Shown here: positions 467 through 40,919 of the stretch, one piece after another
Layout: every line of letters begins with the position of its first letter
Position numbering within the stretch: the stretch's first letter is position 1
Source of the DNA: Phyllobates terribilis
Taxonomy: Eukaryota
Direction of reading: 5' to 3'
Assembly (NCBI RefSeq): GCF_046119375.1
Contig: NW_027362761.1
Span: forward strand, 334,862,001-334,926,000
DNA length: 64,000 nt
Translations under genes and position numbers: made by a program
Notes under the pieces: model-generated
Database searches by the model: none
Seen by the model: the letters and a program-made list of their open reading frames with translations, nothing else
What the model was told of the DNA's origin: nothing

Positions 467-3400
467 ATGCTTACATATGCCCTTGCTGTTTTTGCCCCAC
501 TAATCCTCACTCTCCTTTGCTATCCCCAAACCCCAGCACCCTCTAACCAAATCATCATCTCTCCTTCCCTCTTACCTCCCTACCTGACCTCATCTACAGA
601 CCTGATCCTCATCCTCAGATCTATCCTACCAAAACATAACACAAGCCGGACACTCTCCTTCTCCCACCTGCTCTCCCTCTCTCTGCTTCTCCTCACTGCT
701 GGTGACATATCTCCCAATCCTGGACTCCCACAGCTTGCACCTTCCACCAATTCCCCCACCTATCACATCAAACCAACTGCAAACTACCGAAACCGCTCTT
801 ACGCAAAACCGGTCCCCCTGCTCCCTCTCTCTGGAGCACTCTGGAATGCCCACTCTGTCTGCAACAAGCTCCATTTTGTCTACGACCTCTTTACCTCTCT
901 CAATATCTCCTTCCTGGGCATCACAGAGACATAGCTGACACCCTCCAACACTGCCTCCCCTGCTGTGCTGTGTTACGGTGGCTTGCACTTCACCCACACT
1001 CCTCGCCCTGGTAACAGACATGGTGGAGGAGTGGGTCTTCTCCTTTCTAACAACTGCACCTTTAGCCCTACTCCTCCTCTACCCTCTCTTATTATCCCTT
1101 CTTTTGAAGTTCTCTCTGTCCGCATCTACTCTCCCTCCAACCTCCAAGTGGCTGTCATATACCGACTTCCAGGCTCGGTCACTGCCTTTATTGACCAATT
1201 CTCCACCTGGCTTCTTTACTTTCTCTCTGCTGACATTCCCACAATCATCATAGGCGATTTCAACATCCCCACTGACACTCACCAGTCAGCAGCATCCAAA
1301 CTTCTGTAGCTTACTTCATCCTTTGGACTTACTCAGTGGTCCTCCTCAGGCACCCACACAGACCGACACACACTAGACCTCATCTTCACTCGACACTGCT
1401 CCCTATCTAACCCCACAACCTCCCTCTACCCCTATCTTACCACCATCTACTCACCTTCTAATCCCTGTCCTCCTCACCTGTCACCCATGTCCAGCAACTG
1501 GAACACCCCCACAGAAACCTTGCACATCTAGACACCCACATACTCTCTGACTCTATTCTACCACTGACATCCATAACTTCACTTCATGACACAGACAGCG
1601 CCACTGCTTTCTACAATGCCACTCTTGCATTAGCTATTGACTCGGTCGCCCCTCTTATGCATGGCAGAGCGCGACGAGTCAACAGGCAACGCTGGCACAA
1701 CAACCTCACTAAACAGCTTTGACAAGCGTCTAGGGTTGAGGAGCGGCGTTGGAAGAAAACAGATTCTCAAGATGATTTCACTGCATTCAAACAAGCAACA
1801 CCCGCATTCAAATAAGCACTCACATCTGCTAAACAGGCCTACTTCACAAGCCTCATATCTTCCCTATCCTACAACCCCAAACAGCTATTCAACACTTTTA
1901 CCTCTCTCCTCCTCCCTCCGCTGACCCCTCTGACCTCCATCATCTCTGCTGAGGAGTTTGCCATATACTTCAAAAACAAGATTGACCAAACATGGCAAGT
2001 CTTTACTGTCCGACCACCACAACCTCTTTGTTTTCCACACCATTGTCCTACATCCAAAACCTCCCTTCCCAACATCACGGAAGGAGACCTTACTTGTCTC
2101 CTCTCCAAATCACACCTCACCACTTGTGCACTCGACCCCATCCCACCTCCTCCCCAACCTCCTCCCCAACCTCATCCCCAACCTCATCCCCACATTCTTC
2201 CCACCACTAACCCATCTCTTCAACCTATCACTATCTTCTGCTACCTTCCCTGCTGCCTTCAAACAAGCTACAATCATGCCCATCCTCAAAAAGCCATCCC
2301 TCGACCCAACCACCTTGTCCAGCTAACGCCCCATATCGCTGCTCCCATTTGCCTCCAAACTCCTTGAGCAACACGTTCACGCTGAACTTTCCTCCCACTT
2401 CTCATCTAACTCTCTCTTTGACAATCGACAATCCAGCTTCCGCCCCCACCATTCCACCGAAACTGCCCTTACTAAAATCACCAATGACTTACAGCCAAAG
2501 CTAACAGACAATTCTCTGTACTCCTTCTTGACCTGTCCTCTGCTTTCGATACTGTTGACCACAGCCTCCTACAACAGATCCTCTCTTCCTTTGGCGTCAA
2601 AGACCTCGCCCTATCTTGGATCTCCTCATACCTTTCTAACCGTACATTTGGTGTCTCCCACTCCCACACTGCCTCCTCACCCTGCCCCCTCTCTGTTAGA
2701 GTCCCTCAAGACTCTGTCCTAGGACCTCTATTCTTCTCCATCTATACCCTTGGCCTGGGACAGCTCATAAAATCCCATGGTTTCCAGTACCATCGGTATG
2801 CTGATGACACCCAGATCTACCTCTCTGGCCCAGATGTCACCTCTCTACTGTCCAGAATCCCAGCATGTCTAGCAGCCATATCCTCCTTCTTCTCCTCCAG
2901 CTTCCTCAAGCTCAATGTGGACAAAACCGAACTCATCATCTTTCCCCTATCTCGCATATTTTTCACACTTGATCTTTCTGTCACAATAAATTACATCACT
3001 CTTTCCCCTGAATGGACAATCCGCTGCCTCGGAATAACCCTTGACTCTGCCCTGTTCTTCAAACCCCAAACCCAAGCTCTCGCCACCTCCTGTCGCCTCC
3101 AGCTCAAAAACATTTCCAGAATCCGTCCTTTCCGCAAGCCTCAATCTACTAAACTGCTTGTAAATGCCCTCATCATCTCCCGCCTCGACTACTGCAACAT
3201 CCTCCTCTGTGGCCTACCTGCTAACACTCTTGCACCTTGCTCCATCTCTCTCTACTCCTCTGCTACCCCCCCTTTGCAAATCCCTTCGCTGGCTCCCAAT
3301 TGCCCAGCATATCCAGTTCAAACTACTAACACTGACCTACAAAGCCATCCATAACCTTTCTCCTCCGTACATCTCTAAACTAATCTCCCGATATATTCCC

Positions 3401-3604
3401 TCACGTAATCTTCGATGTTCCCAAGACCTTCTTCTCTCTGTCACACTTATTCATTCCTCACGCAATCGCCTCCAAGATTTCTCCCGAATATCCCCCGTCC
3501 TATGGAATTCTGTGCCTCAACACGTCCGATTATCCGCCACACTTGGAGCCTTCAGACGGAACCTGAAAACCCATCTCTTCAAACAAGCTTACAGCCTGCC
3601 ATGA
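467..3604 (+). pseudogene. L2 ORF2 (APE endonuclease + reverse transcriptase), disrupted by stops and frameshifts
   Basis: ORF fragments 467-934, 965-1309, 1958-2326, 2917-3354 and 3164-3604 are collinear pieces of one APE-RT ORF. In-frame TAG at 932 (where W is expected) and at 1307. Confidence 0.9.
680..730 (+). other. 2A-like (StopGo) motif at L2 ORF2 N-terminus, degenerate: SLLLLTAGDISPNPG-L
   Basis: GGT GAC ATA TCT CCC AAT CCT GGA CTC at 701-727, preceded by a Leu-rich stretch. The final Pro appears as Leu (CTC). Confidence 0.6.
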
Positions 3605-3833
3605 CCTTGCTTGCTGCCACCTCAACAACACCGGAGCTATAGCAACCCCTCAACCTACTGTCTCCTTCCCCATTCCTGTAGAATGTAAGCCCGCAAGGGT
3701 ATGGTCCTCTTCCCTGCGTACCAGTCTATCATTGTTAGTTTGTGCATTGTAAGTGATATCTGTATTTAGTATGTAACCCTTTCTTATGTACAGCACCATG
3801 GAATCAATGGCGCTATATAAATAAATAATAATA

Positions 3834-3897
3834 TCTATCTATTTATTATCTAGCTATTATATATCTAATCTCTTTCTATCATCTATCTATCTATATC
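3834..3897. repeat. Degenerate (TCTA)n/AT-rich microsatellite after the L2 tail
   Basis: atctatctatttatt...atctatctatctata. Confidence 0.6.
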
Positions 3898-4328
3898 TTT
3901 TTGTAAAATTGGTTTATTATTTTTGCCAACTAACTTTAAGTTTACATAGGGTATTATATTATATAAAAGATGATTTTATAAGCTCATTGCATACGGATTG
4001 CATATGCATGTCATATGGATATCATATGGATGCTATGCGAGAAAAAAATGCACACTCGCATAGCACTCGCATTGTTTTAAAATGTATTTCTAATAAAAAT
4101 ATTAATTTTATGGATGGAAGTGCTGGAAAATCCTTTTTTCTTCTTCGGTTCTACAATAGCTTAGCTTGACCAGAAAGAATTGGCACCCATTCATCAATCC
4201 TGTATCCCAACCAATATTGGCATGGTGAGCTTCTTTATTCCTTTTTTTACATACAGGTTCCACTTGTCCAACTTTTCGGGATGACCATTCAAGCAATTTT
4301 TAATACGCTGATGTGAGCGAATACTTAA

Positions 4329-4769
4329 AGGGGTTGTCTGGTCAATAGTGATACGTCTGCAGTCACTCTGTGTGACTGCAGAGTTATGAGTCCCTCCAGC
4401 ACAGGCATTGTGTGCTGTGGGGATTCACCGGTATGAGACCCGGTAACAGAGAGTATGTATGTGTTATACTTACCCCGGCCAGTGGGCGTGGCCTCATTCT
4501 CCATACACTTGTATTGCGCGAGGCCACGCCTTCTAGTCGGACCCGCCCACTGGACATCCAAGTCACTAGATGGGGCATGGCCTCACTCCATACAGGTATA
4601 TGGAGCGAGGCGGCGCTGAATGGCCGGGGGTAGGTATAACGTATACATATCCTCTGGTCCCGGGTCTCATACCGGCAAATCCCCGCAGCGCACCGTGCCT
4701 GCGCTGGAGGGATTCATAAGTCTGAAGTCACACAGAGTGACTGCAGACTTATCACATTTGACAACCCCT
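4329..4769. mobile_element. Foldback MITE, T2-like (Kolobok-type): TTAA TSD, AGGGGTTGTC termini
   Basis: TTAA 4325-4328 | AGGGGTTGTC ... GACAACCCCT | TTAA 4770-4773. Nearly the whole element is an inverted repeat. Confidence 0.85.
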
Positions 4770-6639
4770 TTAATAGAACAAGCGGTTTTCATTTACAAAG
4801 ACTGAATTAAGGTCTCTGAGATGAATAGTAAGAAAAATCACACTTACTCTCAGATTAAAAAAAACTAATTTGGACAAATCAAGCTAAATCCATTATTTTA
4901 CCACTACAGCTTCTTAAGATTCTTTTTGTCACTGAAGTTTAAGCTTACTCCTGTTGCAATAGGAATAGTTGCTGTGATGCATGAAGAACAAGATTGTAGT
5001 CTTCACACAAAACTTTGGCCTAACCCCAACAGCAGTGTTGGTGAAGCTGCTACTAGAACAAAAGTTTTTGCAGTGGGGACAAAATATTTTTCAGCCACCA
5101 GAGGTCATTGATTATAGGGAAGTTATCGTCAGAAAATGATCCATTGTTTAAATCAGGTTTTTGTATTTTTAAATATGCAACTAACATTTTCAGAGAGGAA
5201 AAAAATAGTGGAATTCTAGTGTCATCTATTGGAAGTAGCAATCCAAAAAGTTAATATTAACCATTTTAAAGAGCCTTGCAAAATGACTTAGGATAAGTAG
5301 TAAAAAACTGAAGTTCTGTTTTCAGAGATGTGTTTTAGGGTGTTTTCTCCTCATCATCGCTAAGCAGAACAAGTGTCTGCAAAACGGAGTTTCTGGTTTG
5401 GCTTTTTATCCTAAATTACGTAGGAAGGCCCTTTGAAGAATCGGTATTGACGTTTACGTTGCTACTGCTAATAGTTGGCACTAGAGTTCCTGTCCTCTTC
5501 CTCTCTGAAGAAGTTATTTGCATTTCTAAATTCCCAAGGCAGCCTTGAATGACCTATACGCATTCCCATTTTGAATGTGGAGTATTTATGTTTTTTAAAA
5601 AATAGCATTTTTTTTTCATATCACAATCTTTATTTAACAAAAAAAATCTACATTTTTAATAATCTTTTTTTCATTTTAATTTTTTTACACTGGCCAATGG
5701 GACATTTTTTAGGGTTAAACTTCCTGTCTTTTCAGGAAGAGTTTTCAGCAGAGCTTCTTATCATCAAAGACAGGATTATAATGATAGCTGATAACAAAAG
5801 GATGTACCAATCATATAGGTATAATACAGCGCCTCTTTGTCTTTTACATTGAAAAATCTAATGAGCCGGTGCAAAAGTTAAGATTGGTGTCTGTTCATTG
5901 TGGCTAATGTAAATGTGGATTTCCTGAAACCACAGGAAGTTAGAATCTAGCAAAGCCCCAGTGCCCAGATTAAAAATTGCAATACTTTATTTTTTATTTT
6001 TAATACAGATGGTGTTAAAAAAAAAAAAAATACAAAAACCTGGTTTAAGCAACAGCTAATTTTCTGATTATAGCTTCCTCTTAATGGCGTGGAAGACCCT
6101 ACCTTGCTGAAAGTTCTCGAGAATGAGATAGAGAACAGAGGAACACAGCTCATCTTTTTCTATCATCCCTTCACTCCACAGACATAAAGGAGCTTAGCTC
6201 ATGCTACACTCACTAGGGAAGCTCATTTCACACAAATCCCTTGATATATGCATATAATCAAGTATACACATATTTATTCAGTATGGATAATTCAATCTTA
6301 GGGATTTTCCTTTCAAAGAGAACATTGGGATGCAGTAAATAATATAAGTAGACCCAGTCTCATGTAGCAATATAGCTCAGGATGATCAGCATATAGTATA
6401 TCAAGCAACTGCTGTGCGTGTAACTCTAACGTTATACTCTAGCGTTATAGACTCTAATGAATCCTATTTTTTCACATAAGGGAATTGCATACACAATAAT
6501 TCTATAATATACTTGTAAAATATGTGTTTTTGTTTATGTATAGAGAATAAGCAAATTATTAAAAAAAAGAGATTTCTTTTGAGGGCATAAAGCACTACTC
6601 TTGCTAAGTCTCAATAATTCTCTATTCCGCTTGAAATTC

Positions 6640-14097: not shown

Positions 14098-14442
14098 TAG
14101 GGGAATATGATGGTGCGAAATTCAGGGATATTCTTGAGTTATTTTTTTTTTCTAAAAAAAAAAAACCTTTAAATGTATCCAAATAAGGAATAATCTGACA
14201 TAGTCTTATAATTAAATATGCAATTCTTTATTGAACTTAGCAAACAACCATCATTAAAAACTACTTGCCCCTAAAATCCCAGTTAAAACCAATGGGCAGT
14301 GTTGTATACAGGTAAGATTGTGACATATAAATAATTATATATATCACTGATCAAATGCACATTTTACAGTATACAAATCAATAGCCATATCATGATTAGG
14401 CATATAAATACACAGAGTATACAAATCAGTGACGATATCACA

Positions 14443-14446
<4 letters not shown>

Positions 14447-14506
<60 letters not shown>
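14447..14506. repeat. (TA)n microsatellite that received two Tc1 insertions; continues at 16156-16165 and 17794-17830
   Basis: Pure TA run. The homologous run in the right arm is at 19884-19935. Confidence 0.95.
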
Positions 14507-14512
<6 letters not shown>

Positions 14513-16155
14513 TATGAAAAAGTTTGGGCACCCCTATTAATCTTAAGCTTAATGTTTTATAAAAATTGGTGTTTTGCAACAGCTATTTCAGTTTGATATA
14601 TGTAATAACTGTTGGACACAGTAATGTTTCTGCCTTGAAATGAGGTTTATTGTACTAACAGAAAATGTGCAATCTGCATTCAAACAAAATTTGACAGGTG
14701 CATAAGTATGGGCACCTCACCAGAAAAGTGACATTAATATTTAGTAGATCCTCCTTTTGCAAAAATAACAGCCTCTAGTCGCTTCCTGTAGCTTTTAATG
14801 ATTTCCTGGATCCTGGATGAAGGTATTTTTGACCATTCCTCTTTACAAAACAATTCCAGTTCAGTTAAGTTTGATGATCGCCGAGCATGGACAGCCCTCT
14901 TCAAATGATCCCACAGATGTTCAATGATATTCAGGTCTGGGGACTGGGATGGCCATTCCAGAACATTGTAATTGTTCCTCTGCATGAATGCCTGAGTAGA
15001 TTTGGAACAGTGTTTTGGATCATTGTCTTGCTGAAAGATCCATCCCCTGCGTAACTTCAACTTTGTCACTGATTCTTGAACATTATTGTCAAGAATCTGC
15101 TGATACTGAGTGGAATCCATGCGTCCCCCAACTTTAACAAGATTCTCGATGCCGGCATTGGCCACACAGCCCCAAAGCATGATGGAACCTCCACCAAATT
15201 TTACTGTGGGTAGCAAGTGTTTTTCTTGGAATGCTGTGTTTTTTTGCCGCCATGCATAACGCCTTTTTGTATGACCAAACAACTCAATCTTGGTTTCATC
15301 AGTCCACAGGACCTTCTTCCAAAAAGAAATTAGCTTCTCCAAATGTGCTTTTGCATACCTCAGCCGACTCTGTTTGTGGCGTGCTTGCAGAAACGGCTTC
15401 TTTCGCATCACTCTCCCATACAGCTTTTCCTTGTACAAAGTGCATTGTATAGTTGACCGATGCACAGTTACACCATCTGCAGCAAGTTGATGCTGCAGCT
15501 CTCTGGAGGTGGTCTGAGGATTGTCCTTGACTGATTTCACCATTCTTCTTCTCTGCCTTTCTGATGTTTTTCTTCGTCTGCCACTTCTGGCCTTAACAAA
15601 AACTGTCCCTGTGTTCTTCCATTTCCTTACTATGTTCCTCACAGTGGAAACTGACAGGTTAAATCACTGAGACAGCTTTTTGTATCCTTCCCCTGAACAA
15701 CTATGTTGAATAATCTTTGTTTTCAGATCATTTGACAGTTGTTTTGAGGAGCCCATGATGCCACTCTTCAGAGGAGATTCAAACAGGAGAACAACTTGCA
15801 AGTGGCCACTTTAAGTAGCTTTTCTCATGATTGCATACACCTGGATATGAAGTTCAAAGCTCAATGAGGTTACAAAACCAAAAAAAGTGCTTTAGTAAGT
15901 CAGTAAAAAGTAGGTAGGAGTATTTAAAACAAGAAAATGATAAGGGTGCCCATACTTATGCACCTGTCAAATTTCGCTTGAATGCAGATTGCACTTTTTC
16001 TGTTAGTACAATAAACCTCATTTCAAGGCAGAAACATTACTGTGTCCAACAGTTATTACATATATTAAACTGAAATAGATGTTTCAAAAACACCAATTTT
16101 TATAAAACATTAAGCTTAAGATTAATAGGGGTGTCCAAACTTTTTCATGTAACTG
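14507..16155 (-). mobile_element. Young Tc1 (DD34E, ~200-bp IR/DR TIRs), copy 1
   Basis: TIR (C>T)AGTTATATGAAAAAGTTTGGGCAC ... TTTTTCATGTAACTG|TA; 1649 bp. Confidence 0.95.
14734..15756 (-). pseudogene. Tc1 transposase, 340 codons, single nonsense codon (codon 31 TGA)
   Basis: MGSSKQLSNDLK start at 15756, TGA at 15664-15666. The rest is open, with WTDETK, QQDNDPKH and SPDLNIIE (DD34E). Confidence 0.92.
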
Positions 16156-16165
16156 TATATATACA

Positions 16166-17793
16166 CAGTACAGACCAAAAGTTTGGGCACACCTTCTCAT
16201 TTAAAGATTTTTCTGTATTTTCTTGACTATGAAAATTGTACATTTACACTGAAGGAATCAAAATGATGAATTAACACATGTGGAATTATATACTTAACAA
16301 AAAAGTGTGAAACAACTGAAAATATGTCTTATATTCTATGTTCTTCAAAGTAGCCACCATTTGATTTGATGACTGCTTTGCACACTCTTTGCATTCTCTT
16401 GACGAGCTTCAAGAGGTAGTCACCAGAAATGGTCTTACAACAATCTTGAAGGAGTTCCTAGAGATGCTTAACACTTGTTGGTCCTTTTGCCTTCACTCTG
16501 CGGTCCAGCTCACCCCAAACCATCTTGATTGGGTTCAGGTCTGGTGACTGTGGAGGCCAGGTCATCTGGCGTAGCATCTATCACTCTCCCTCTTGGTCAA
16601 ATAGCCCTTACACAGCCTGGAGGTGTGTTTGGGGTCATTGTCCTGTTGAAAAATAAATGACGGTCCAACTAAACGCAAACCGGATGGAATAGCATGTCGC
16701 TGCAAGATGCTGTGGTAGCCATGCTGGTTCAGTATGCCTTCAATTTTGAATAAATCCCCAACAGTGTCACCAGCAAAGCACCCCCACACCATCACACCTC
16801 CTCCTCCATGCTTCACGGTGGGAACCAGGCATGTAGAGTCCATCCGTTCACCTTTTCTGCGTCGCACAAAGACACGGTGGTTGGAACCAAAGATCTCAAA
16901 TTTGGACTCATCAGACCAAAGCACAGATTTCCACTGGTCTAATGTCCATTCCTTGTGTTCTTTAGCCCAAACAAGTCTCTTCTGCTTGTTGCCTGTCCTT
17001 AGCAGTGGTTTCCTAGCAGCTATTTTAACATGAAGGCCTGCTGCACAAAGTTTCCTCTTAACAGTTGTTGAAGAGATGTGTCTGTTGCTAGAACTCTGTG
17101 TGGCATTGACCTGGTCTCTAATCTGAGCTGCTGTTAACCTACGATTTCTGAGGCTGGTGACTCGGATAAACTTATACTCAGAAGCAGAGGTGACTCTTGG
17201 TCTTCCTTTCCTGGGGCGGTCCTCATGTGAGCCAGTTTCTTTGTAGCGCTTGATGGTTTTTGCAACTGCACTTGGGGACACATTCAAAGGTTGCCCAATT
17301 TTTCAGACTAACTGACCTTCATTTCTTAAAGTAATGATGGCCACTCGTTTTTCTTTATTTAGCTGCTTTTTTCTTGCAATAATAGAAGTTCTAACAGTCT
17401 ATTCAGTAGGACTATCAGCTGTGTATCCACCTGACTTCTGCACAACACAACTGATGGTCCCAACCCCATTTATAAGGCAAGAAATCCCAGTTATTAAACC
17501 TGACAGGGCACACCTGTGAAGTGAAAACCATTTCCGGTGATTACCTCTTGGAGCTCATCAAGAGAATGCCAAGAGTGTGCAAAGCAGTCATCAAAGCAAA
17601 AGGTGGCTACTTTGAAGAACCTAGAATATAAGACATATTTTCAGTTTTTCACACTTTTTTGTTAAGTATATAATTCCACATGTGTTAATTCATAGTTTTG
17701 ATGCCTTCAGTGTGAATGTACAATTTTCATATTCAGGAAAATACAGAAAAATCTTTAAATGAGAAGGTATGTCCAAACTTTAGGTCTGTACTG
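16166..17793 (-). mobile_element. Tc1-superfamily element of DD38E type (Intruder-like)
   Basis: TIR CAGTACAGACCAAAAGTTTGG ... CCAAACTTTAGGTCTGTACTG|TA. Transposase remnant ~16329-17380; restoring one base gives 38 residues between the second D and the E position (here AAG). Confidence 0.85.
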
Positions 17794-17917
17794 TATATAT
17801 ATATATATATTTTTATATATATATATATATAATGGGCACCATGACAGAAACAGCTAAATATTGATTATATCTATCAAGAGTACAAAGCATGTGCCACAGT
17901 GACAATACCAAACTGCC

Positions 17918-17966
17918 CAATACCCCTATGCGCGCTTCGCATTTGTTGCTTCCTCGGTGAGTACTG
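17918..17966 (-). ncRNA. Degenerate minimal hammerhead (PLE1 inverted left arm)
   Basis: Reverse complement: CAGTACTCA-CCGAGGA-AGCAACAAATGC-GAAGCGCGCATA-GGGGTATTG. Confidence 0.55.
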
Positions 17967-18435
17967 AGGCAACGTGCAGCTTGAATATATATAGCAAAAT
18001 GAGGGGGATTAAGCCCAACCTACTGCCTATCATGTTTCAGTATTGCTTCATTATGCATAAATACCTTTTTTCCATAATTTTGCTGCCCATTGTGAGCTCC
18101 AAAGAGGGTGGGGGATGTCATGCCCACCCAATGTACTGTCCGTGTATATGGGAGAAGCTGCGATGCCTGCCTCACTTCGTCCTCCGTGCCCGGTGTCCCG
18201 GAAGTCAGACCACCCATGCGCACGCGGCAGGACCTCCGATAGGATGCCAGGGAGGGAGAGGCTCAGTGGCACAGCGCAGGTGCAGACCCACGATGTGCAT
18301 CAAGAAACCATATTGTGAATGGGCAGCCCATTGCCCATAACCCTAAACATACAATATCAATGTCAATATCCAGGATACCTCTAAAATGTAACAGTCTCCA
18401 GTTGCATCTATGATAATCCCTAAAATGCTTACCCG

Positions 18436-18691
18436 AAACTCGTAAGAATACTTGAGCACATAAAAGACATAAGAAATGCAGCAAAATGTGACAAACCTGA
18501 GGAACTGACATTATTAAAAAAATCCCAAAGCATTTTAGGGATTACCATAGAAGGTATTGATAAGGTTAGCAAGAGGGGATAATCTTAAAAAGATATTAGA
18601 ACAAAAAGAAATTAAATAGATCATCGCACTAGACATGGTAAAACAGAGAGGACTAAATGATATGATTATCTTTGCCCCCTTTTTGGTGTAA
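18436..18691 (+). pseudogene. Penelope GIY-YIG endonuclease C-terminal remnant
   Basis: Across two frame changes it reads KLVRILEHIKDIRN...IPKHFRDYH / EGIDKVSKRG / DNLKKILEQKEIK*IIALDMVKQRGLNDMIIFAPFLV*. This fits the RxxEH...HF...H...E..WI..L....GLN pattern of PLE endonucleases. Confidence 0.8.
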
Positions 18692-19726
18692 CTCACGACA
18701 CTGCTGATGGGGATAGTTAAGGATTAGGGAGGGATTCTGATCTAAAATACTGTTCATCTCATTTGCTATTTTAATGCTGTCTGAAATAATTGGTAAAATT
18801 GGTTACTTTAGAGGGATTAATGTGCAATATAATATATGGGCTCTTAGCTGAACATATGTAGAAACTATTTGAAATCTGGTACATTAATATTGTCAGATGT
18901 AGACATTTAATTAATATTTATATGAATTTATAATTTATAGTGAATCATTAACAACTTAATAATATGGCACTACTACCTGACTGTATAATTAATATTTATT
19001 TGACTTTACAACCTATAGTGATGTACCAATGATTTAGTAATATGGCACTACTAACTGACTGTTTAATTTCTACTACTAACTTAATGTCTAATCTAACCAC
19101 AGCTTGGATTATACCCTTACTATCAATGCCTACAACATGAGAATTTAATCATAATCTGGACTGTGTCATTACTAACCTTACCTGCAATACTGAAAAAACC
19201 CAAGAGGGCGACTTAACCCTGAAATTGAACCAACAGTTGCTGATGCTGAAGGAATATAAGATTAATTAATTATTTATCTGATTGTATACTTTAATAATAT
19301 TGTGAAGGTATCCTGGATATTGACACCGCTGGTTTCTTTGTATGTTTAGGGTTATGGGCAATGGGCTGCCCATTCACAATATGGTTTCTTGATGCACATC
19401 GTGGGTGTGCGCCTGCGCTGTGCCGCTGAGCCTCTCCTCCCTGCCTGTCGTCCTATCGGTGGTCCTGCCGCGCGCATGCATGATCTGACTTCTGGGACGC
19501 TGGGCACGGAGGATGATGCAAGGCCGGCATCACAGCTGCGCCCATACACACAGACAGCGCATTGGGTGGGCATGACATCCCCCACCCTCTTTGGAGCTCA
19601 CAATGGGCAGCAAAATTGTGGAGAAAAGGTATTTATGCATAATGAAGCAATACTGAAACATGGTAGGTAGCAGGTTGGGCTTAATCCTCCTCATTTTGCT
19701 ATATATATTCAGACTGCACATTGCCT

Positions 19727-19774
19727 CAGTACCCCCGAGGAAGCAACAAATGCAAAACGCGCGTAAGGGTACTG
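19727..19774 (+). ncRNA. Degenerate minimal type I hammerhead ribozyme (PLE1 right arm)
   Basis: CAGTACCC-CCGAGGA-AGCAACAAATGC-AAAACGCGCGTA-AGGGTACTG: stem I, a CUGANGA-like core, stem II GCA/UGC, palindromic stem III ACGCGCGU. U4 and G12 are altered. Confidence 0.65.
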
Positions 19775-19883
19775 GGCAGTGTGGTATCGTCACTATGGCA
19801 CATGGTTTGTACTCTTTATAGATATAATCAATATTTAGCTATTTCTGTCATGGTGCCCATTGTGCATATAGTCCACCTCTATA

Positions 19884-19919
<36 letters not shown>

Positions 19920-20193
19920 TATATATATATATATACAATTGTGATATGGTCACTGATTTGTAAACTCTGTGTATTTATATAATCATGATATGGGTATTGA
20001 TTTGTATACTGTAAAATTGGCATTTGATCATTAATATATATAATTATTTATATAAAATCAAGTGAGGGTCGCTCACTGTTGATAGTGGGTGCTCTGGAGT
20101 AAATTATACCAAACTCAGTTCAAAGAGAAACTCCGGCACTCCAATGTGAATGCAAAGAATATTTATTTAGATAAACCCCACATAGGAGAAGTC

Positions 20194-20230
20194 GGCCAAC
20201 GTTTCGACTTTTATGGTCTTCGTCAGGGCC
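20194..20230 (-). ncRNA. Minimal type I hammerhead ribozyme with complete core
   Basis: GGCC-CUGACGA-A-GAC(CAUAAAA)GUC-GAAA-C-GUU-GGCC: all core nucleotides present, palindromic ACGU stem III, GUU triplet. Confidence 0.75.
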
Positions 20231-20878
20231 TTTTCTAGATATAGGTAAAAAACAGAACACAGAAAATAAATCATACAAGAATATGGACCATATGTGTCAA
20301 AGTATAAAGCAAATATCATTAAAAAGGTGTAAATAAAAAATCTAACCAGAAGCTCAATGCGTTCCACTGCACTCCACAATGCCTTTTGCGTTCTAGCACG
20401 AGCACTGGAAGTATGTCACATCGCACTGCGCATGACCGGAAACAGCCACACGCAGCCAGCACACATGCCGCCTGATCTTTCACAACAGGTACGCTAATCA
20501 TATGAGGTATATAAAGAGGGCAACACTGATTGGCACATCACACGGCATTACCTACTGCTACCATTTTTCTATAAGCACCCCCGCACCTACAGATATGTAT
20601 ATGATCTGGTATATTTCTATTCATCTTCATGAGACCCTCTACTTTCACTATTTGGTATTAGTGACAGAGCTATGCTACCATACCTATAGTCTTTTCTTGA
20701 GATATATTGACTAGCCAATGTTACATGCCGGTTTGTCAGTTTCCTATCCCACATTATATGTATATAGATTTTTGATTTACATCTTTACAATGATATTTGC
20801 TTTTTACTTTGACACATGTGGTCCATATTCTTGTATGATTTATTTTCTGTGTTCTGTTTTTTACCTATATCTAGTAAA

Positions 20879-20915
20879 GGACCCCAAAAAGACCATAAAA
20901 GTCGAAACGTTGGCA
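20879..20915 (+). ncRNA. Core-mutated copy of the PLE2 hammerhead
   Basis: GGAC-CCCAAAA-AGACCATAAAAGTC-GAAACGTT-GGCA. Confidence 0.5.
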
Positions 20916-21873
20916 GACTTCTCCTATGTGGGGTTTATCTAAATAAATATTCTTTGCCTTCACATTGGAGTGCCGGAGTTTCTCTTTGAACTATAATTAT
21001 ATTTATATGTCACAATCTTAATTGTATACCACACTGCCCATTGGTTTTAACTGGGATTTTAGGGGAAAGTTTTTAATGATGGTTGTTTGCTGTGTTCAAA
21101 AAAGAATTGTATATTTAATTATAAGACTATGTCAGATTATGACTTATTTGAATACATTTAAAGGGTTTTTTTTGCGAAAATTTACGAATTAGGGATACTT
21201 CCCTTTCATTATTAATGGATCTACAGTATATATCCTAGTAGTGCTGATATTCTTGAGCTGTACCTGTTTCAGTCTGTCAGTGATTTGAGGCTGGGATGGA
21301 GGTTCATCTTCCAACACGACAATGACCCAAAGCATACTGATAAAGCAACACTCGAGTGGTTTAAGGATAAATGTGTAAATGTTTTGGAGTGGACTAGTCA
21401 AAGCCCAGACCTTAATCCAATTGAGAATCTGTTGTCAGACTTGAAGATTGCTGTTCACCAGACGAAACCATCTAACTTGAAGGAGATGGAGCAGTTTTGC
21501 CTTGTGGAACAGACAAAAAACTCAGTGGCAAAATGTGCAAAGCTCATAGAGACATATCCAAAGTGATTTGCAGCTGTAAATGCTGCAAAAGGAGGCTCTA
21601 CAAAGTACTGACTTTAGGGGGGTGAATAGTTATGCAAACTGAATTTTCAGTTACTTTGTCCTATTTGTTGTTTGCTTCACAATAATAAGAAAACCAAATT
21701 TTCACAGTTGTAGGCATGTTCTTTACGTGAACTGATGCAAACCCTCAAAAAAAAACAGTGAAATTCCAGGTTGTGAAGTAGCAAAACATGAAAAATGGCA
21801 AAGAAGGTGACTACTTTCAGAAGCCTCTATATTTGGAACTCACATAAATAAAGCAGCCTGCTCAATATACTTA

Positions 21874-23523
21874 CAGTTATATGAAAAAGTTTGGGCACCC
21901 CTATTAATCTTAAGCTTAATGTTTTATAAAAATTGGTGTTTTTGCAACAGCTATTTCAGTTTGATATATGTAATAACTGTTGGACACAGTAATGTTTCTG
22001 CCTTGAAATGAGGTTTATTGTACTAACAGAAAATGTGCAATCTGCATTCAAACAAAATTTAACAGGTGCATAAGTATGGGCACCTCACCAGAAAAGTGAC
22101 ATTAATATTTAGTAGACCCTCCTTTTGCAAAAATAACAGCCTCTAGTCGCTTCCTGTAGCTTTTAATGATTTCCTGGATCCTGGATGAAGGTATTTTTGA
22201 CCATTCCTCTTTACAAAACAATTCCAGTTCAGTTAAGTTTGATGGTCGCCGAGCATGGACAGCCTTCTTCAAATGATCTCACAGATGTTCAATGATATTC
22301 AGGTCTGGGGACTGGGATGGCCATTCCAGAACATTGTAATTGTTCCTCTGCATGAATGCCTGAGTAGATTTGGAGCAGTGTTTTGGATCATTGTCTTGCT
22401 GAAAGATCCATCCCCTGCATAACTTCAACTTTGTCACTGATTCTTGAACATTATTGTCAAGAATCTGCTGATACTGAGTGGAATCCATGCGTCCCTCAAC
22501 TTTAACAAGATTCCCGGTGCCGGCATTGGCCACACAGCCCCAAAGCATGATGGAACCTCCACCAAATTTTACTGTGGGTAGCAAGTGTTTTTCTTGGAAT
22601 GCTGTGTTTTTTTGCCGCCATGCATAACGCCTTTTTGTATGACCAAACAACTCAATCTTGGTTTCATCAGTCCACAGGACCTTCTTCCAGAAAGAAATTG
22701 GCTTCTCCAAATGTGCTTTTGCATACCTCAGCTGACTCTGTTTGTGGTGTGCTTGCAGAAACGGCTTCTTTCGCATCACTCTCCCATACAGCTTCTCCTT
22801 GTGCAAAGTGCGTTGTATAGTTGACCGATGCACAGTGACACCATCTGCAGCAAGTTGATGCTGCAGCTCTCCGGAGGTGGTCTGAGGATTGTCCTTGACT
22901 GATCTCACCATTCTTCTTCTCTGCCTTTCTGATGTTTTTCTTGGCCTGCCACTTCTGGCCTTAACAAAAACTGTCCCTGTGTTCTTCCATTTCCTTACTA
23001 TGTTCCTCACAGTGGAAACTGACAGGTTAAATCGCTGAGACAGCTTTTTGTATCCTTCCCCTGAACAACTATGTTGAATAATCTTTGTTTTCAGATCATT
23101 TGACAGTTGTTTTGAGGAGCCCATGATGCCACTCTTCAGAGGAGATTCAAACAGGAGAACAACTTGCAAGTGGCCACTTTAAGTAGCTTTTCTCATGATT
23201 GCATACACCTGGCTATGAAATTCAAAGCTCAATGAAGTTACAAAACCAAAAAAAGTGCTTTAGTAAGTCAGTAAAAAGTAGGTAGGAGTATTTAAAACAA
23301 GAAAATGATAAGGGTGCCCTTACTTATGCATCTGTCAAATTTTGTTTGAATGCAGATTGCACATTTTCTGTTAGTACAATAAACCTCATTTCAAGGCAGA
23401 AACATTACTGTGTCCAACAGTTATTACATATATCAAACTGAAATAGCTGTTGCAAAAACACCAATTTTTATAAAACATTAAGCTTAAGATTAATAGAGGT
23501 GCCCAAACTTTTTCATATAACTG
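21874..23523 (-). mobile_element. Young Tc1 (DD34E), copy 2
   Basis: TA|CAGTTATATGAAAAAG ... TTTTTCATATAACTG|TA; 1650 bp. Confidence 0.97.
22102..23124 (-). pseudogene. Tc1 transposase, single nonsense codon (Trp282 to TGA)
   Basis: Open from ATG 23124 to TGA 22279-22281; the frame continues to TAA at 22102-22104. Confidence 0.92.
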
Positions 23524-24863
23524 TATATAAAGTGAGGTCGTGCTAACAAGACAACTTCTGTCCAGAAGTGTGCATATCACATACCTCAAAGGTGTTCTCG
23601 GTTCAGAAACCGGCGAATCCTTGCAGTGCACAATATGTGCACTAGGGGTTTCGAAAGTCTGCAGTCACACAGAATGGCTGCAGACTGTTCATTTTGGACC
23701 GGCCAACACCTTGAACGTTAACAATACGCTAAATAACCTTACAGTAGGTTAAAACTTCAATTCCTTTTAGTACATAATTATGAATCAACATATACACACA
23801 TGAATTTGCACTTTATATTTCTGACGATCAACCGGGAATCTTGTTATCCAAACAACTGAATACAAAATGCATTTACAATAAAACTGCCAGGTAAATTATT
23901 AATGCACAACACGTAGCTATTAATCAATTTTCAATTTACCATTCATCATTGTACAATTTGCACAATGCTTCCACTATTAACCTACAATTAACAAAATATA
24001 TTTCTTCCTGGAAGAAATACAACTGTTTTGCCTTTGAGTATCAAGCACAGGAGATATCTAAACCTTTTTAAAAACAAGAAGTGGTAAATGCCATTTACTG
24101 TAAACATTCAACTGACATATCTCCTAGTCCAGATGAAATTTTGAATGGGTATTATAAAAACATAAAAAACTGGCCAGACACATAACATCAGTTTTCAATT
24201 TAGCTATTGGCTCAGGCTTATTCTCTGAAAAAATGCATGGATCTTTGATAGTGAATCTTCATAATGCTTGAAAGGTCCCTGAGTCACCAGAACTTTTTTG
24301 TTCCATTCACTTTTGAACTCAGATGTCAAGTTGAACACAACATAATACTCTCAGGGATTAACTCTGATCAGGGATATTTTTACAATCATCAAGCTTCAAT
24401 TCTAGACTTTTTTTTACCTAATTTGATTAGGAGAGCTTTGTGGAATGCTATCTATTCTAGTATATTTCATTGGGGGTATTACTTTCTTCCTATATGGCTA
24501 ACATTGACCGTTTATCGTGAAAATTTGCTGACATCCATAATGTAAAGGATTTGCTAAGTAAAAGTAAAAACTACTAAGCAATAAGGAACAATTTGATTAA
24601 ATGTAATTTTCTTGTTCATTATTTTAGTACATTCAAGATGGATTTTTGCAAGTTATAAAAATTTGCAATATACATAAAACAACAATTATAATTAAAAAAA
24701 GTTAAAGAATCTCTCATTTCTACAATGACTGCTTTTTATCTTTTCTTCAAAGAGTAACACCTCAAATGTTAAAATGTGTTACTCACCTGTCCCGGCTCAT
24801 CTGCCAGGCCTTGCTTCCTATCCCTATGGCTAGCTATCTTTGTACTAGCCCATGCTAGGTTAC

Positions 24864-25240
24864 TGTGATAACTTGGCAAACACCTTCGACATCAGCCAAG
24901 GCCTTTATAGGCCAGCTAAAGAAGCGATGTGTTGTCTGTGTAACGTATAAGGTAGTGGAATCACTGTGCCATGGACCGAAGAGAGCCTGGAACACCTGAC
25001 TCTTCGCTAAAACCCCTGATGGTGTGATTAGACTTTGCTCCAGATGGACGCCAGGTATTACTTCAAGACTGACCTCTGACAAACGGCAGCTGACCCCCAA
25101 AGGGGCAGGAAGCTATAACAGCCAGGAATGGGAAGGCTCGGCTGGTACAGGCACGGCAGGTATAAAGGAAGGCACAGCAGGTACTGACTAGCATGAATAG
25201 TATACAGGAAGACAGGTGCAGGCAGGTTCAGCTGGTATCC
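24864..25240 (-). mobile_element. Partial solo LTR related to the Gypsy LTR at 25602
   Basis: tgtgataacttggcaaacaccttcgacatc... aligns with 25602 onward. Confidence 0.75.
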
Positions 25241-25601
25241 CAGTTCATTTCTTTAGTTTTTTTTCAGTCTATTTGCACCATGTGCATATAAAGGTGTGGC
25301 CTGCCTTTTCCTTGAACTGGACATTCTATTCATGTTGTTCCCCATGGCTGTGTGTCTACTAGCTGGGCTCAGTCCTTCTCAGCTCTTATCTACATGCCTG
25401 TCACTTGACAAAGGGTAAGGTTTTAATATTAGAGTTAAGACCATCCCAAACAGGGTCACCGTGAAATGGTGGGATGGCTTTTGCATTTTTTTTAATCAAA
25501 ATTATGTTAACCAAGTACACTATATTATTTTCATGCACTATTGCTCTTTAGTTATTTACTGCAGGGTATTTACTTGTTATGTTTGTGTCTTTGGTTTTTA
25601 C

Positions 25602-28600
25602 TGTGGTAACTTGGCAAACACCTTTGACATCTTCAGCCAAGGCCTTTTAAGGCCAGCTAAAGCAGACAGGTGTTGTCTGTGTAACATACGTGGTAGTGGA
25701 ATCACTGTACCATGGACCGAGTAGAGCCTGGAGGAGTTTGACTAGGTGAACAACTAACTCTTTGCTAAAGCCCCTGATGCTGTGGTTAGACTGGGCTCCA
25801 GATGGACACCAGATGCTACTGCAAGACAGACCTCAGACACATGGCAGCTGACCTATGAAGGGGCAGATAGTAAGAATAGCCAAGAATGGGAAGGCTCAGC
25901 TGGTACAGGCACGGCAGGTGTACAGGAAGGCACGGCAGGTACTGGCTACCATGGCTGGCATACAGGAAGGCACGTCAGGCACTGACAGGTATGGCTGGTA
26001 TTCAAGCAGGAACGGCAGGTGTTGGCAGGTACAACTGGTATACAGGCAGGCATGGCAGGTGCTGGCAGGTATGGCTGGTATACAGGCAGGCACGTCAGGT
26101 GCTGGCAGATACGGCTGGTATGAAGTCACACACGGCAGGTGCAGACAGCTATACTAGAACAGGGGACCTGAGAACTAGCAAGCTTGCAGACATGCAGAAT
26201 GAGCACGTTGCTCTGACACCTGCCAACAGGTGGAGGTGCCTTTAATAATAAGTGCCTCCCAGTCATTGGCTAGGGGCACTCTAGAAAGGTGCTCGCTGTC
26301 TTTTTAAGAGACTGGTAGCGCGCCCTAAGTGCAGTGCCCCGTGATCTGCCAGAAATGTGCGCATACCCCAGGAGACTGCAGCAGCAGGAAGAAGCGCAGG
26401 CCGAGGGCCAGGCGGTGAGTAAATCAGTGTCCCTGCTGGGGGAGAGGTGGATGGGGAACACGCAAGGATACCGGCACTGCAGTACCCCCCTCACTTTACG
26501 CCCTTTATTCTTCAAGCCTGCAAGAAATATCTCCAGGAGGAGAGGGACATGGATGTTCTCCTTGGGCTCCCACGACCTCTCCTCAGGACTGAACCCCTTC
26601 CAATCCATTAGAAAAGAGATTTTTCCTCTTACCCTTTTAGTGGCCAGAATATTCTCTACCTCGCAGACATCTTCAGAGCTGATTGGAGCAGGACTGGTAC
26701 CCGGGTCCTTGAAGAAGGAGCTTAAGATGACAGGTTTGAGAAGAGACATGTGGAATGAGTTGGGGATATGTAAAGAGGCTGGGAGCTTGTGCTTGCAGGA
26801 TACGGCATTTATCTGTTTGAGAACCTTGAAAGGACCGATAAAATGAAGATCCAACTTGTACGAAGGTAGTTTGAGATGGACAAACTTTGAAGAAAGCCAA
26901 ACCTTGTCCCCAGGACGAAACACAGGTGGGTCCATACACCTCTTGTCTGCATGTCATTCTGAAGACTTTACCAATGTGGCCTCGGTGTCCTCCCAAATTT
27001 TAGAGAAGGCCTTGGTGAAAGCTGCTGCCGCAGGGATGTCAGAGGTAGTAGCTACAGGGAATGGAATATTTGGGTGTTAACCATACACAATAAAAAAGTG
27101 AGACTTAGCAGAGGACTATCTCACATAGTTATTATAAGAGAATTCGGCCCAAGGCAGGAGTTCGGCCCAATCACTGTGGTAAGCTTTGACGAAATGGTGC
27201 AAAAATTTGATTAAGATCTTGATGACCCATTCTACCTGGCCATTGGATTGGGGATGGATGGCTGAAGAGAAGTCCAGGGTTACATTTAGCAGCTTACAGG
27301 TACCACTCCAGAACTGAGATGTGAACTGGATCAGAAACTATATGGAGAGGTAACCTGTGAAGACAGAAGATATGCTGGATGAACTTCTCAGCAAGAACAG
27401 GAGTAGAAGGGAGACCGGACAAAACAGTAAAGTGGCCATCTTTGAGAAGGGATCCGTAACTATACTTCAGGCTTAAACTGGAAGATCAGTGATGAAGTCC
27501 ATAACGATGTTCTGCCAGGGAGCTGACGGTTTGGACAGAGGAAGTAACCGACTGGAGCTGTTTCGGAGTCTTATTCTGAGCACATGACGGACAGGCCGAG
27601 ACAAAATCTGCAATATTTTTGCACAGGGATGGCCAATAATGCTGAGAAATGAGAAGGGCAATTTTCTTCTGTCTGGCATGACCAGCCAATTTAGATGAGT
27701 TACCCCAATGAATAACCCAGCTCCTTTCTGGTTCAGTGACGAACATCTTTTCGGATGGAACCCGAGACAAGTCCACGAGAACAACAGTAAGCATCTTGGA
27801 GGACTCAATGATGTGTTGAGGCTGCTCCTCTTGGTCAGAAGACAAAAAGGACCTAGAAAGTGCATCTGCTTTGACGTTCTTGTCCACCATATGGAAATGG
27901 AGAACAAAATCAAAGCGGGTGAAAAACAAAAAACACCTAGCTTGGTGCGGTTGTGCAGACTGCAGATAGGCTAAGTTGTGTTCAGTATAGATAATTACTG
28001 GATGAACCGCTCCCTCAAGTAGACAGCGCCACTGCTCCAAAGCCAATTTAATCGCCAACAGTTCTCGATCGCCTATCGAGTAATTGTGTTCTGGAGCCAA
28101 ACAGGCTTTGGAAAAGAAACCACATGTCACCAAAAGTCCGGTAGGAGACTTCTGAGTAAGAATGGCACTGACCCCAAAGGAAGAAACATCCACCTCCAAA
28201 AAGAATTGCTTATTACCGTCAGGTCTGTGCAGCACTGGAGCTGAAGAAAAGGACTATTTTAGGGAGGCAAATGCGGTCAGCCTCCGGAGTCCATACCCTA
28301 GGGTTAGCACTCTTACGGGTCAGGACAGAAATCGGGGTGGTCCGAGAGGAGAAATGTAGGATGAACTGGTGCTAGTAATTAGCGAATCCCAGAAATTGCT
28401 GGATAGCTTTCCAGCCATCAGGAAAGGTCACTTCAGGATGACGGACACTTTCTCAGGATCCATCCTCAGTCCGGTCTTAGAGATGATGTATCCAAGGAAG
28501 GGAAGTGAGGTTTACTCGAAGACACTCTTCTCAAATTTGGCACAAACGGTTCTTCCTCAACCTCTACAGTACCTGGGGGACATTCCGCCTGTATGTGGGC

Positions 28601-38049: not shown

Positions 38050-38501
38050 TAAGTTTAGAGGCTATATTTTGGGACATCTGTCTTAACACCATCTGTCATC
38101 ATCTGAGATAAGTCTCCCATTGTTTATAACATCGCTATCATATGATTTGTATGTTTATACTTTATCTGTGTTAGGTTGCATTGGATTGTAATGCAACAAT
38201 TTGTTTAGTTAGAGGGCTATCCAGGGTTAGCGTCGGAGAGCCGCCGTGGAGTGAGGGCGCCATATCGCCAACTTTAACTAGGGTGAATAGCTTTTTTAGA
38301 TCCAGGGTCTGGACAGTCTATTTCTGTGCGTTGTAATATTTGGTCTCTAATTTTAGAGACTTGTGGGAGACTTATTTGTCTTGTTTTTATTGTAAGCACC
38401 TTGTCACTTTACACACTTTTGTCACTTATCATCTAAGGGCACCGAGAAACACTTGTAACATATAACATATAGGGCCTTTTTCTAATCCATTAGTTGTTAT
38501 A

Positions 38502-40128
38502 CAGTTATATGAAAAAGTTTGGGCACCTCTATTAATCTTAAGCTTAATGTTTTATAAAAATTGGTGTTTTTGCAACAGCTATTTCAGTTTGATATATGTA
38601 ATAACTGTTGGACACAGTAATGTTTCTGCCTTGAAATGAGGTTTATTGTACTAACAGAAAATGTGCAATCTGCATTCAAACAAAATTTGACAGATGCATA
38701 AGTATGGGCACCCTTATCATTTTCTTGTTTTAAATACTCCTACCTACTTTTTACTGACTTACTAAAGCACTTTTTTTGGTTTTGTAACTTCATTGAGCTT
38801 TGAACTTCATAGCCAGATGTATGCAATCATGAGAAAAGCTACTTAAAGTGGCCACTTGCAAGTTGTTCTCCTGTTTGAATCTCCTCTGAAGAGTGGCATC
38901 ATGGGCTCCTCAAAACAACTGTCAAATGATCTGAAAACAAAGATTATTCAACATAGTTGTTCAGGGGAAGGATACAAAAAGCTGTCTCAGTGATTTAACC
39001 TGTCAGTTTCCACTGTGAGGAACATAGTAAGGAAATGGAAGAACACAGGGACAGTTTTTGTTAAGGCCAGAAGTGGCAGGCCAAGAAAAACATCAGAAAG
39101 GCAGAGAAGAAGAATGGTGAGATCAGTCAAGGACAATCCTCAGACCACCTCCGGAGAGCTGCAGCATCAACTTGCTGCAGATGGTGTCACTGTGCATCGG
39201 TCAACTATACAACGCACTTTGCACAAGGAGAAAGAAGCCGTTTCTGCAAGCATGCCACAAACAGAGTCAGCTGAGGTATGCAAAAGCACATTTGGAGAAG
39301 CCAATTTCTTTCTGGAAGAAGGTCCTGTGGATTGATGAAACCAAGATTGAGTTGTTTGGTCATACAAAAAGGCGTTATGCATGGCGGCAAAAAAACACAG
39401 CATTCCAAGAAAAACACTTGCTACCCACAGTAAAATTTGGTGGAGGTTCCATCATGCTTTGGGGCTGTGTGGCCAATGCCGGCACGGGGAATCTTGTTAA
39501 AGTTGAGGGACGCATGGATTCCACTCAGTATCAGCAGATTCTTGACAATAATGTTCAAGAATCAGTGACAAAGTTGAAGTTATGCAGGGGATGGATCTTT
39601 CAGCAAGACAATGATCCAAAACACTGCTCCAAATCTACTCAGGCATTCATGCAGAGGAACAATTACAATGTTCTGGAATGGCCATCCCAGTCCCCAGACC
39701 TGAATATCATTGAACATCTGTGAGATCATTTGAAGAGGGCTGTCCATGCTCGGCGACCATCAAACTTAACTGAACTGGAATTGTTTTGTAAAGAGGAATG
39801 GTCAAAAATACCTTCATCCAGGATCCAGGAAATCATTAAAAGCTACAGGAAGCGACTAGAGGCTGTTATTTTTGCAAAAGGAGGGTCTACTAAATATTAA
39901 TGTCACTTTTCTGGTGAGGTGCCCATACTTATGCACCTGTTAAATTTTGTTTGAATGCAGATTGCACATTTTCTGTTAGTACAATAAACCTCATTTCAAG
40001 GCAGAAACATTACTGTGTCCAACAGTTATTACATATATCAAACTGAAATAGCTGTTGCAAAAACACCCATTTTTATAAAACATTAAGCTTAAGATTAATA
40101 GGGGTGCCCAAACTTTTTCATATAACTG
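38502..40128 (+). mobile_element. Young Tc1 (DD34E), copy 3
   Basis: TA|CAGTTATATG ... CATATAACTG|TA; 1627 bp, i.e. 23 bp shorter than copy 2. Confidence 0.97.
38901..39900 (+). pseudogene. Tc1 transposase with TGA at codon 31, a 23-nt deletion and Trp282 to TGA
   Basis: TGA 38991-38993, deletion near 39231, TGA 39721-39723, TAA 39898-39900. Confidence 0.92.
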
Positions 40129-40919
40129 TATCTATAAAGAGGATAAAAAAAAGGGTGATGACCAGATGAATACAAGAGACGGATCAATTATGGATATATA
40201 GATATCATTTCTGGTGAGAATCGTCTTTATTTACCCTATGTAGGCAGTAGATGGTTCATCAGTAGTGTTGAGCGAGCACTAAAATGCTCGGGTGCTCAAA
40301 GCTCGGGCCGAGCTCACCGTGATACTCTGGTGCTCGACCCGAGCAACGAGCCCAATGTTAGTCTATAGGACACCCGAGCATTTTTGCAGCAGCACCCCCG
40401 GCAGTCTTTTAAAAGCCTAACAAGTGTCCAAAACGATAGTTACAGTGCTCAAATGACATGGGGACAGCATGGGGATCACCCCAGGAAGCATTTCTGACCC
40501 CCAGGTCACTGCTGTCAACAACTTGGTCAGAGGTATTAAGCCACTTTTATGGGCTCACAATAAAACGTTCAAAAACGAAACTGAAACTGCTTTAGTGTGA
40601 AATATGTTAAGGGAGTTCCTTTCCAGAGTAAAGACTTGTGTATAAGGTAAAATAAATAACCCCCCCAAAAAATACTCCTCCACACCTTGGGCTATGTTCA
40701 CAAGTAGCATTTTTTATGCGTTTTTGCCCTTGTGTATTGCTTTCAACCGTGACAAATGCATTCACCGGGAAATGTAATTTTAACATTTTGCAACCTTATC
40801 TGGCCATGTGCTGTGTGACACTTGCATACAGTGCTGAAAAGACATGGGAACAGCATGGGGAAGACCCCTGGAAGCATCTCTGACACCCAGGTCACTGCCT
40901 AAAAGTGTGCCCATCAGAA

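What the first reader, a model, noticed from the sequence alone, without database searches (positions are those of the whole stretch)
20054..20992. Non-coding ~0.94-kb PLE-like element with a core-intact minimal hammerhead (retrozyme-like)
Seen: the minus strand at 20230-20194 reads GGCC-CUGACGA-A-GAC(CAUAAAA)GUC-GAAA-C-GUU-GGCC, with the full catalytic core, a 4-bp stem I and a loopless palindromic ACGU stem III. The opposite arm (20879-20915) has four changes within the 7-nt core (CCCAAAA), although the arms are otherwise similar. There is no ORF, and a 14-bp TSD and one-sided tail point to retrotransposition. Known: loopless minimal hammerheads of PLEs and retrozymes cleave mainly as dimers. 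Inference: a possibly undescribed frog non-autonomous ribozyme retroelement mobilised by PLE proteins. It landed inside another PLE's pLTR, which hints at a target preference.
Basis: partly seen in the sequence, partly recalled or inferred. Interest (0 to 1): 0.8.

Follow-up and report, generated by a model that had tools for sequence, protein, structure and literature searches.

The report
Truncated Penelope-like retrotransposon end, inverted
This is an ordinary broken-off, mirror-image end of a protein-coding jumping gene, not a separate ribozyme parasite; its perfect-looking ribozyme core is a one-copy exception in a lineage whose youngest members carry a mismatched core.

Summary
The sequence facts hold: minimal hammerhead on the minus strand (20230-20194), 228-bp inverted arms (94%), one-sided 63-nt tail, and a 14-bp TSD proven by empty sites (right copy has a 2-nt insertion), inside another PLE's pLTR. 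The interpretation does not. Relatives carry this sequence as the 3' end of an RT + GIY-YIG, Neptune-type Penelope-like element; this copy was cut about 300 nt after the stop codon and its inversion junction is unique in the genome. It is a dead-on-arrival 5'-truncated insertion with the known inverted pLTR and tail, not a retrozyme or non-autonomous family. The two hammerheads face opposite ways and cannot dimerise in cis. The 'intact' G8 is private: 1 of 28 family arms (16 C3·A8, 11 U3-A8); 2 G8 against 66 A8 for this stem genome-wide. Young sister families with long open frames carry the C3·A8 mismatch while keeping the rest of the motif: the only possibly new point. No target preference beyond AT-rich DNA. 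The scan noted similar stump insertions earlier in another genome.

The parts
20040..20053 (+). left TSD copy (14 bp)
   Evidence: single copy in empty sites L085, L086
20054..20116 (-). 63-nt tail, the stretch between the family's two 3' ends; leads into the start of ORF1 in full-length context
   Evidence: arms end either at TTTGAACT or about 63 nt further; in L104 the tail runs on into ORF1
20117..20344 (-). inverted, 5'-truncated pLTR arm (228 bp)
   Evidence: junction at 20344/20345 found once in the genome
20194..20230 (-). minimal type I hammerhead with canonical C3-G8 core; G8 (20221) private to this arm; stem II only 3 bp (family 4 bp)
20345..20992 (+). direct, 5'-truncated 3' end of the PLE (starts about 300 nt after the ORF2 stop of L033), with a 79-bp deletion at 20622/20623; ends at the tail-less 3' end
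20593..20874 (+). retained pLTR intron; donor mutated here (GT to AT at 20593), acceptor AG at 20873-20874, 4 nt before hammerhead stem I
   Evidence: intron-less genomic copies L066, L077, L078 join the same exon to the hammerhead; same intron position in sister family
20879..20915 (+). degenerate hammerhead of the direct arm (cluster of changes in the core; A8 as in the family)
20993..21008 (+). right TSD copy with 2-nt insertion
19306..21173 (+). host: right arm (pLTR) of an older, different PLE family, split by the insertion about 290 bp after its own decayed hammerhead (about 19728-19770)
   Evidence: arms match 17789-18380 (87%) and 14157-14500 (91-92%) inverted; relatives L099, L100 show a GIY-YIG ORF end upstream

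Best explanation
A single, old, dead insertion of an autonomous-type Neptune-like Penelope-like element. Inferred sequence of events: the parent's RT-EN nicked AT-rich DNA with a 14-nt stagger; reverse transcription started at the family's two internal start sites, one giving the tail-less end and one the tailed end; both cDNAs stopped early (at least 648 and 291 nt) and were joined 5' end to 5' end, giving the inverted arms. The template was unspliced. Afterwards the arms drifted: a clustered mutation broke the core of the direct arm and one A-to-G change gave the inverted arm a canonical C3-G8 pair. Shown: ancestry, anatomy, TSD, uniqueness, private G8. Inferred from the literature: the priming steps. 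The motif is unlikely to cut in place: its only neighbour is on the other strand and would bury it in a 228-bp hairpin.
For: L033, L031, L032 continue 1.9-2.7 kb upstream into RT and GIY-YIG frames (Pfam GIY-YIG E 2.8e-6). Copies have many different 5' ends and arm lengths. 9 of 22 other family insertions gave clear 12-16-nt flanking repeats, all of different sequence. A young sister family (99.6-100% identical) makes the same ORF-less two-arm inserts, 3 of 3 with their own junction, one-sided tail and 15-16-nt flanking repeats. Junction unique at up to 2 mismatches. The two arms are sisters nested among C3·A8 copies (support 0.91). Whole-element fold pairs the hammerhead with the other arm. 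Same anatomy described in PMC3846280 and PMC8557442; tail explained in PMC11167929.
Against: Only 40 of 312 candidates were scored in the family search. The search for the 79-bp deletion gave no answer. 13 of 22 insertions gave no clear TSD with my rough boundaries. No intact ORF of this exact family was found, so mobilisation in trans by a sister family is not excluded. The tail is 63 nt, longer than the 30-40 bp in print. No RNA data were laid on the window element itself.
Confidence: 0.9

Rival explanations
1. A non-autonomous, retrozyme-like family that moves as a 0.94-kb unit with a working ribozyme, using PLE proteins.
For: No ORF, TSD, canonical core in one arm. Non-autonomous PLE derivatives exist (PMC8557442; bioRxiv 10.64898/2026.07.22.740005).
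Against: Junction found once; none of the scored copies shares the deletion; G8 found once in the family; no tandem array; hammerheads on opposite strands.
Confidence: 0.05
2. The G8 came in with the RNA template (RT error or A-to-I editing of A8), not by later drift, so the copy records a rare active form of the family ribozyme.
For: The change is A-to-G; inverted arms make long double-stranded RNA.
Against: A single A-to-G among 14 arm differences, no A-to-G excess; no other letter at position 8 in contigs of 4 runs laid on the sister family (contigs drop rare variants); one such change among 28 arms that have drifted by several percent is what chance gives (inference).
Confidence: 0.07
3. 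A MITE-like DNA transposon with long terminal inverted repeats.
For: 228-bp inverted arms and no ORF.
Against: The repeat does not reach the left end (tail); TSDs vary in sequence and length; intron-less copies exist; RT-linked relatives.
Confidence: 0.01

Closest known systems
5'-truncated insertion units of EN+ Penelope-like elements, Neptune type (PMC3846280 passages; PMC8557442 introduction and passages)
   Same: C-terminal GIY-YIG, Cx2Cx2C linker in sister ORFs, inverted truncated pLTR, optional one-sided tail, variable TSD, separate ORF1, intron in the pLTR
   Different: Tail about 63 nt instead of 30-40; no Repbase comparison or RT tree was possible, so the family name is open
Minimal hammerheads of metazoan PLEs (Cervera and de la Pena 2014, PMC4209133; results and discussion read)
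   Same: Short helix I, extra base between 9 and 10.1, G10.1-C11.1, palindromic 15.2-16.2; opposite-strand pairs 100-700 bp apart and about 9,000 motifs in X. tropicalis already reported; U3-A8 variant already reported
   Different: The lineage here mostly carries an unpaired C3·A8, which that descriptor would not retrieve
Non-LTR retrozymes of animals (PMC7229834 passages; bioRxiv 10.64898/2026.07.22.740005, parts 1-3 of 5)
   Same: Non-coding, type I hammerhead, pLTR-related
   Different: Those are head-to-tail tandem units (about 170-400 nt RNAs) with a ribozyme in each unit; this is one inverted pair with a unique junction
Poseidon element PAc of Anolis (PMC11167929, main text read)
   Same: Two 3' ends a tail apart; AT-rich targets
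   Different: PAc's canonical C3-G8 core is needed for (protein-assisted) cleavage but not for insertion in vitro; here the young families lack that pair

Membership tests
EN+ PLE, Neptune type (truncated copy) | Sequence is the 3' end of an RT + C-terminal GIY-YIG ORF | tested here: met
   L033, L031, L032; RT recognised by motifs and by 81-83% identity among these copies; Pfam gave no RT hit on the broken pieces
EN+ PLE, Neptune type (truncated copy) | Zn-finger-like CX2-5CxxC linker between RT and EN | tested here: met
   CLGCLQC in L102 and L103; the linker is frame-broken in L033
EN+ PLE, Neptune type (truncated copy) | Placement in the Neptune clade by RT phylogeny | not tested
   no reference set at hand; Nematis shares the linker
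EN+ PLE, Neptune type (truncated copy) | Inverted truncated pLTR and optional one-sided tail | tested here: met
   tail 63 nt
EN+ PLE, Neptune type (truncated copy) | TSD of variable sequence and length | tested here: met
   empty sites; 9 of 22 other insertions
PLE minimal hammerhead | Core, extra base 9/10.1, G10.1-C11.1, palindromic stem III | tested here: met
   minus arm
PLE minimal hammerhead | Self-cleavage as a dimer | not testable with these tools
   cofold joins two monomers through the central palindrome; no activity shown
Non-LTR retrozyme | Two or more head-to-tail units, each with a hammerhead | tested here: not met
Non-LTR retrozyme | Circular RNA of unit length | not tested
   no reads laid on this element
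Non-autonomous PLE family | Several insertions share the same internal structure | tested here: not met
   junction 1 match; deletion absent from scored copies; the direct search for it failed
MITE / DNA transposon | Repeats at both very ends and a fixed TSD | tested here: not met

The most novel reading that the evidence does not exclude
A recently active Neptune-type lineage has fixed a hammerhead whose C3-G8 core pair is replaced by an unpaired C3·A8, yet keeps stems I and II, CUGA, GAAA and the palindrome across families whose pLTRs are otherwise only about 70% alike. Either C3·A8 is a working, probably protein-assisted core variant not in the descriptors I could read, or the motif is kept for a non-catalytic role (it begins 4 nt after a splice acceptor). 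One subfamily re-paired the site as U3-A8 and this window's arm is a natural C3-G8 revertant, so the three states can be assayed side by side.
Probability: 0.4. Interest if true: 0.55.

Novelty: new member of a known kind. Interest (0 to 1): 0.27.

Why it matters
The element itself matters little: canonical minimal hammerheads of this one geometry occur 759 times in this genome. It is a warning that ORF-less, TSD-flanked, hammerhead-bearing palindromes are the normal debris of Penelope-like elements. What could matter is the lineage: whether PLE hammerheads must cut is an open question (low activity in vitro, PMC4209133; not needed for insertion in vitro, PMC11167929). Young copies spreading with a C3·A8 core, beside natural U3-A8 and C3-G8 forms, make that question directly testable.

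Tried and rejected
Rfam at E<=5 over 15000-26000: 14 chance-level matches, no hammerhead. Monomer folding gives the inactive rod for the window motif, z about -2; not informative on activity. CpG decay as the source of A8: rejected, 0 of 28 arms show the TG product and the young families have no CpG there. Target preference for pLTRs: 2 of 21 other family insertions had PLE sequence within 400 bp, at unlike positions; the library was small, so this is a lower bound. RNA: no RNA holder listed on record for the sister element; no search was made with the window element. The deletion search gave no answer. In one search the L055 row was mis-specified and the alignment was not used. In one search the anchor missed for L059, L068, L070, L072, L074, L078-L080; L078 was redone. 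Lunse, Weinberg and Breaker 2017 (variant PLE hammerheads) is not held, and one supplementary file of PMC4209133 was not searched; either may already list C3·A8. Searches for the variant in print: none showed it in listings or passages read (PMC3884650, PMC7151607 passages).

Full report
Observation. The minus strand at 20230-20194 is the stated minimal hammerhead and the arms 20117-20344 / 20765-20992 agree at 214 of 228 positions. It has the extra base between 9 and 10.1, the G10.1-C11.1 pair and the palindromic 15.2-16.2 that PMC4209133 lists for PLE motifs. There is no ORF. The window holds its own empty site: 14157-14500, the other arm of the host element, carries the 14-bp target once, as do L086 and (one change) L083. 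The right TSD copy has two extra bases.

What it belongs to. A search of the 10.6-Gb genome gave 105 matches of 71-94% identity besides the element itself included; 40 of 312 candidates were scored. I fetched 28 larger stretches. In L033, L031 and L032 the sequence of the window's direct part continues upstream into RT and GIY-YIG frames; the window copy starts about 300 nt after the stop codon, which is why it has no ORF. L033 has the same inverted-arm layout around a 3.7-kb insert. In L104 the tail runs on into ORF1. Sister families at 69-73% identity have open frames of 832 and 828 aa with the Cx2Cx2C linker of Neptune/Nematis (PMC8557442). Clade placement rests on this motif, not on a tree.

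Not a family of its own. Arm lengths and 5' ends differ among copies. The inversion junction has 1 match at up to 2 mismatches, the window itself. The 79-bp deletion is absent from the copies compared; the direct search for it failed. The young sister family shows the process fresh: of 8 loci mapped (5 insertions), 3 are ORF-less two-arm inserts of 0.43, 1.34 and 1.37 kb, 99.6-100% identical to L103, each with its own junction, a tail on one side and a 15-16-nt flanking repeat. 9 of 22 other insertions of the window's family gave clear flanking repeats of 12-16 nt including end ambiguity, all different; for the other 13 my boundaries were rough or no repeat was seen. L066, L077 and L078 lack the pLTR intron precisely, which shows an RNA intermediate. 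Inverted pLTR, optional tail and short TSD are described in PMC3846280 (passages) and PMC8557442 (passages); opposite-strand hammerhead pairs 100-700 bp apart in PMC4209133. Retrozymes are defined by tandem units; there are none here.

The 'intact' core. Of the 30 best of 43 arm matches, 28 have a readable core (L071, L074 dropped): 16 C3·A8, 11 U3-A8, 1 C3-G8, the window's minus arm. Exact patterns give 1 G8 against 9 A8 for the family and 2 against 66 for the wider stem type, 60 of them C3·A8 and 45 identical (counted from the lists). The window's arms are sisters inside the C3·A8 group (a rough tree of 24 rows, some with non-homologous flanks, distant root). So G8 is a private change. The plus arm's damage is clustered (5 of 14 differences within 8 nt, P about 0.0025), probably one event. 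Both arms share a stem II shortened to 3 bp. A transcript across the element would pair the motif with the other arm, and no second copy lies on the same strand. Canonical motifs are common in other families: 759 matches for one geometry against 105 for C3·A8, about 64 of the 100 listed being this lineage.

Host and target. The flanks are the pLTR of an older PLE family whose relatives have canonical cores and a GIY-YIG ORF end; its arms are 87-92% alike against 94% for the insert. Only 2 of 21 other insertions had PLE sequence nearby, not at the same place. The 30 bases on each side of the window insertion are 87-93% A+T, in line with AT-rich cutting by PAc (PMC11167929). A review passage says PLEs tend to insert into or next to existing PLE copies (PMC6765202), so nesting is not new.

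Mechanism. Shown: ancestry, truncation, TSD, uniqueness, private G8. Inferred: two primings at the family's two internal start sites, early stops, 5'-to-5' joining; PMC3846280 argues instead for self-priming on an antisense template, which these data do not exclude. Confidence 0.9 in an ordinary truncated copy.

What may be new. The lineage keeps the hammerhead frame while its flanks diverge, yet its youngest, ORF-bearing members have C3·A8. C3-G8 is a Watson-Crick pair of the active core (PMC3884650 passage) and single changes there abolish cleavage in PAc, without stopping insertion. I did not find C3·A8 described, but the paper most likely to list it could not be read and one supplement was not searched. 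Contigs of 4 coded runs laid on L103 bridge the cut site, show no other letter at position 8 and show GT-AG joints, one ending 4 nt before stem I; their RNA status is a guess by the tool and spliced genomic copies exist, so this is weak.

Verdict. Observation confirmed, interpretation partly supported; new member of a known kind; interest 0.27. Two earlier notes of this scan describe similar stump insertions in another genome; they are unchecked and not counted as support.

Noticed in passing
L102:1085-6274; L103:1367-5930: Young Neptune-type copies with long open frames (832, 828 aa) whose hammerhead core is C3·A8; 45 identical motifs of one family genome-wide.
   Followed up: partly
L103:4952 to 2587, 2284, 2202; 2025 to 1564: Contigs of 4 runs show GT-AG joints from the end of ORF1 that skip all of the RT-EN frame; one 1122-nt contig orders hammerhead exon, tail, ORF1, 3' exon, as from a circle or tandem copies. 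RNA status of the runs is a guess.
   Followed up: partly
L103:5611-4913 and 5174-2691; L102:2013-2753 and 2513-5008; L033:4730-5251 and 5071-5892: ORF1 and the RT-EN frame overlap by about 180-260 nt in different frames; a frameshift-separated ORF1 is noted in PMC8557442 Fig. 1 legend.
   Followed up: partly
L066, L077, L078, L124: Intron-less genomic copies beside intron-retaining ones; in L124 both arms are spliced.
   Followed up: partly
L073, L075, L118: Copies begin at or next to the splice acceptor before the hammerhead; L075 and L118 share an upstream stretch that looks Tc1-like (label recalled), as if spliced from read-through RNA.
   Followed up: no
window 14157-21173: The host is a large inverted PLE whose left arm is split in its (TA)n by two elements with terminal inverted repeats (14498-16161, 16156-17803; Tc1-like by recall); the first recurs at 21865-23529 and 38498-40136 at 96-98%.
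   Followed up: partly
G000:C2:845.05-845.16 Mb: Tandem array of another PLE family with about 4.6-kb spacing and mostly 797-aa open frames.
   Followed up: no
G000:C13, C211, C231, C326, C800, C1911: A PLE RT with the same TAG stop recurs about every 80 kb in dozens of units, as if embedded in a large tandem repeat.
   Followed up: no
L121: The only other G8 for this stem type, as U3·G8, in a distant family.
   Followed up: no
window 43254-46438; 55857-57486; 48718-50979: Tandem arrays of 132-133 and 147 bp, and long palindromic blocks.
   Followed up: no
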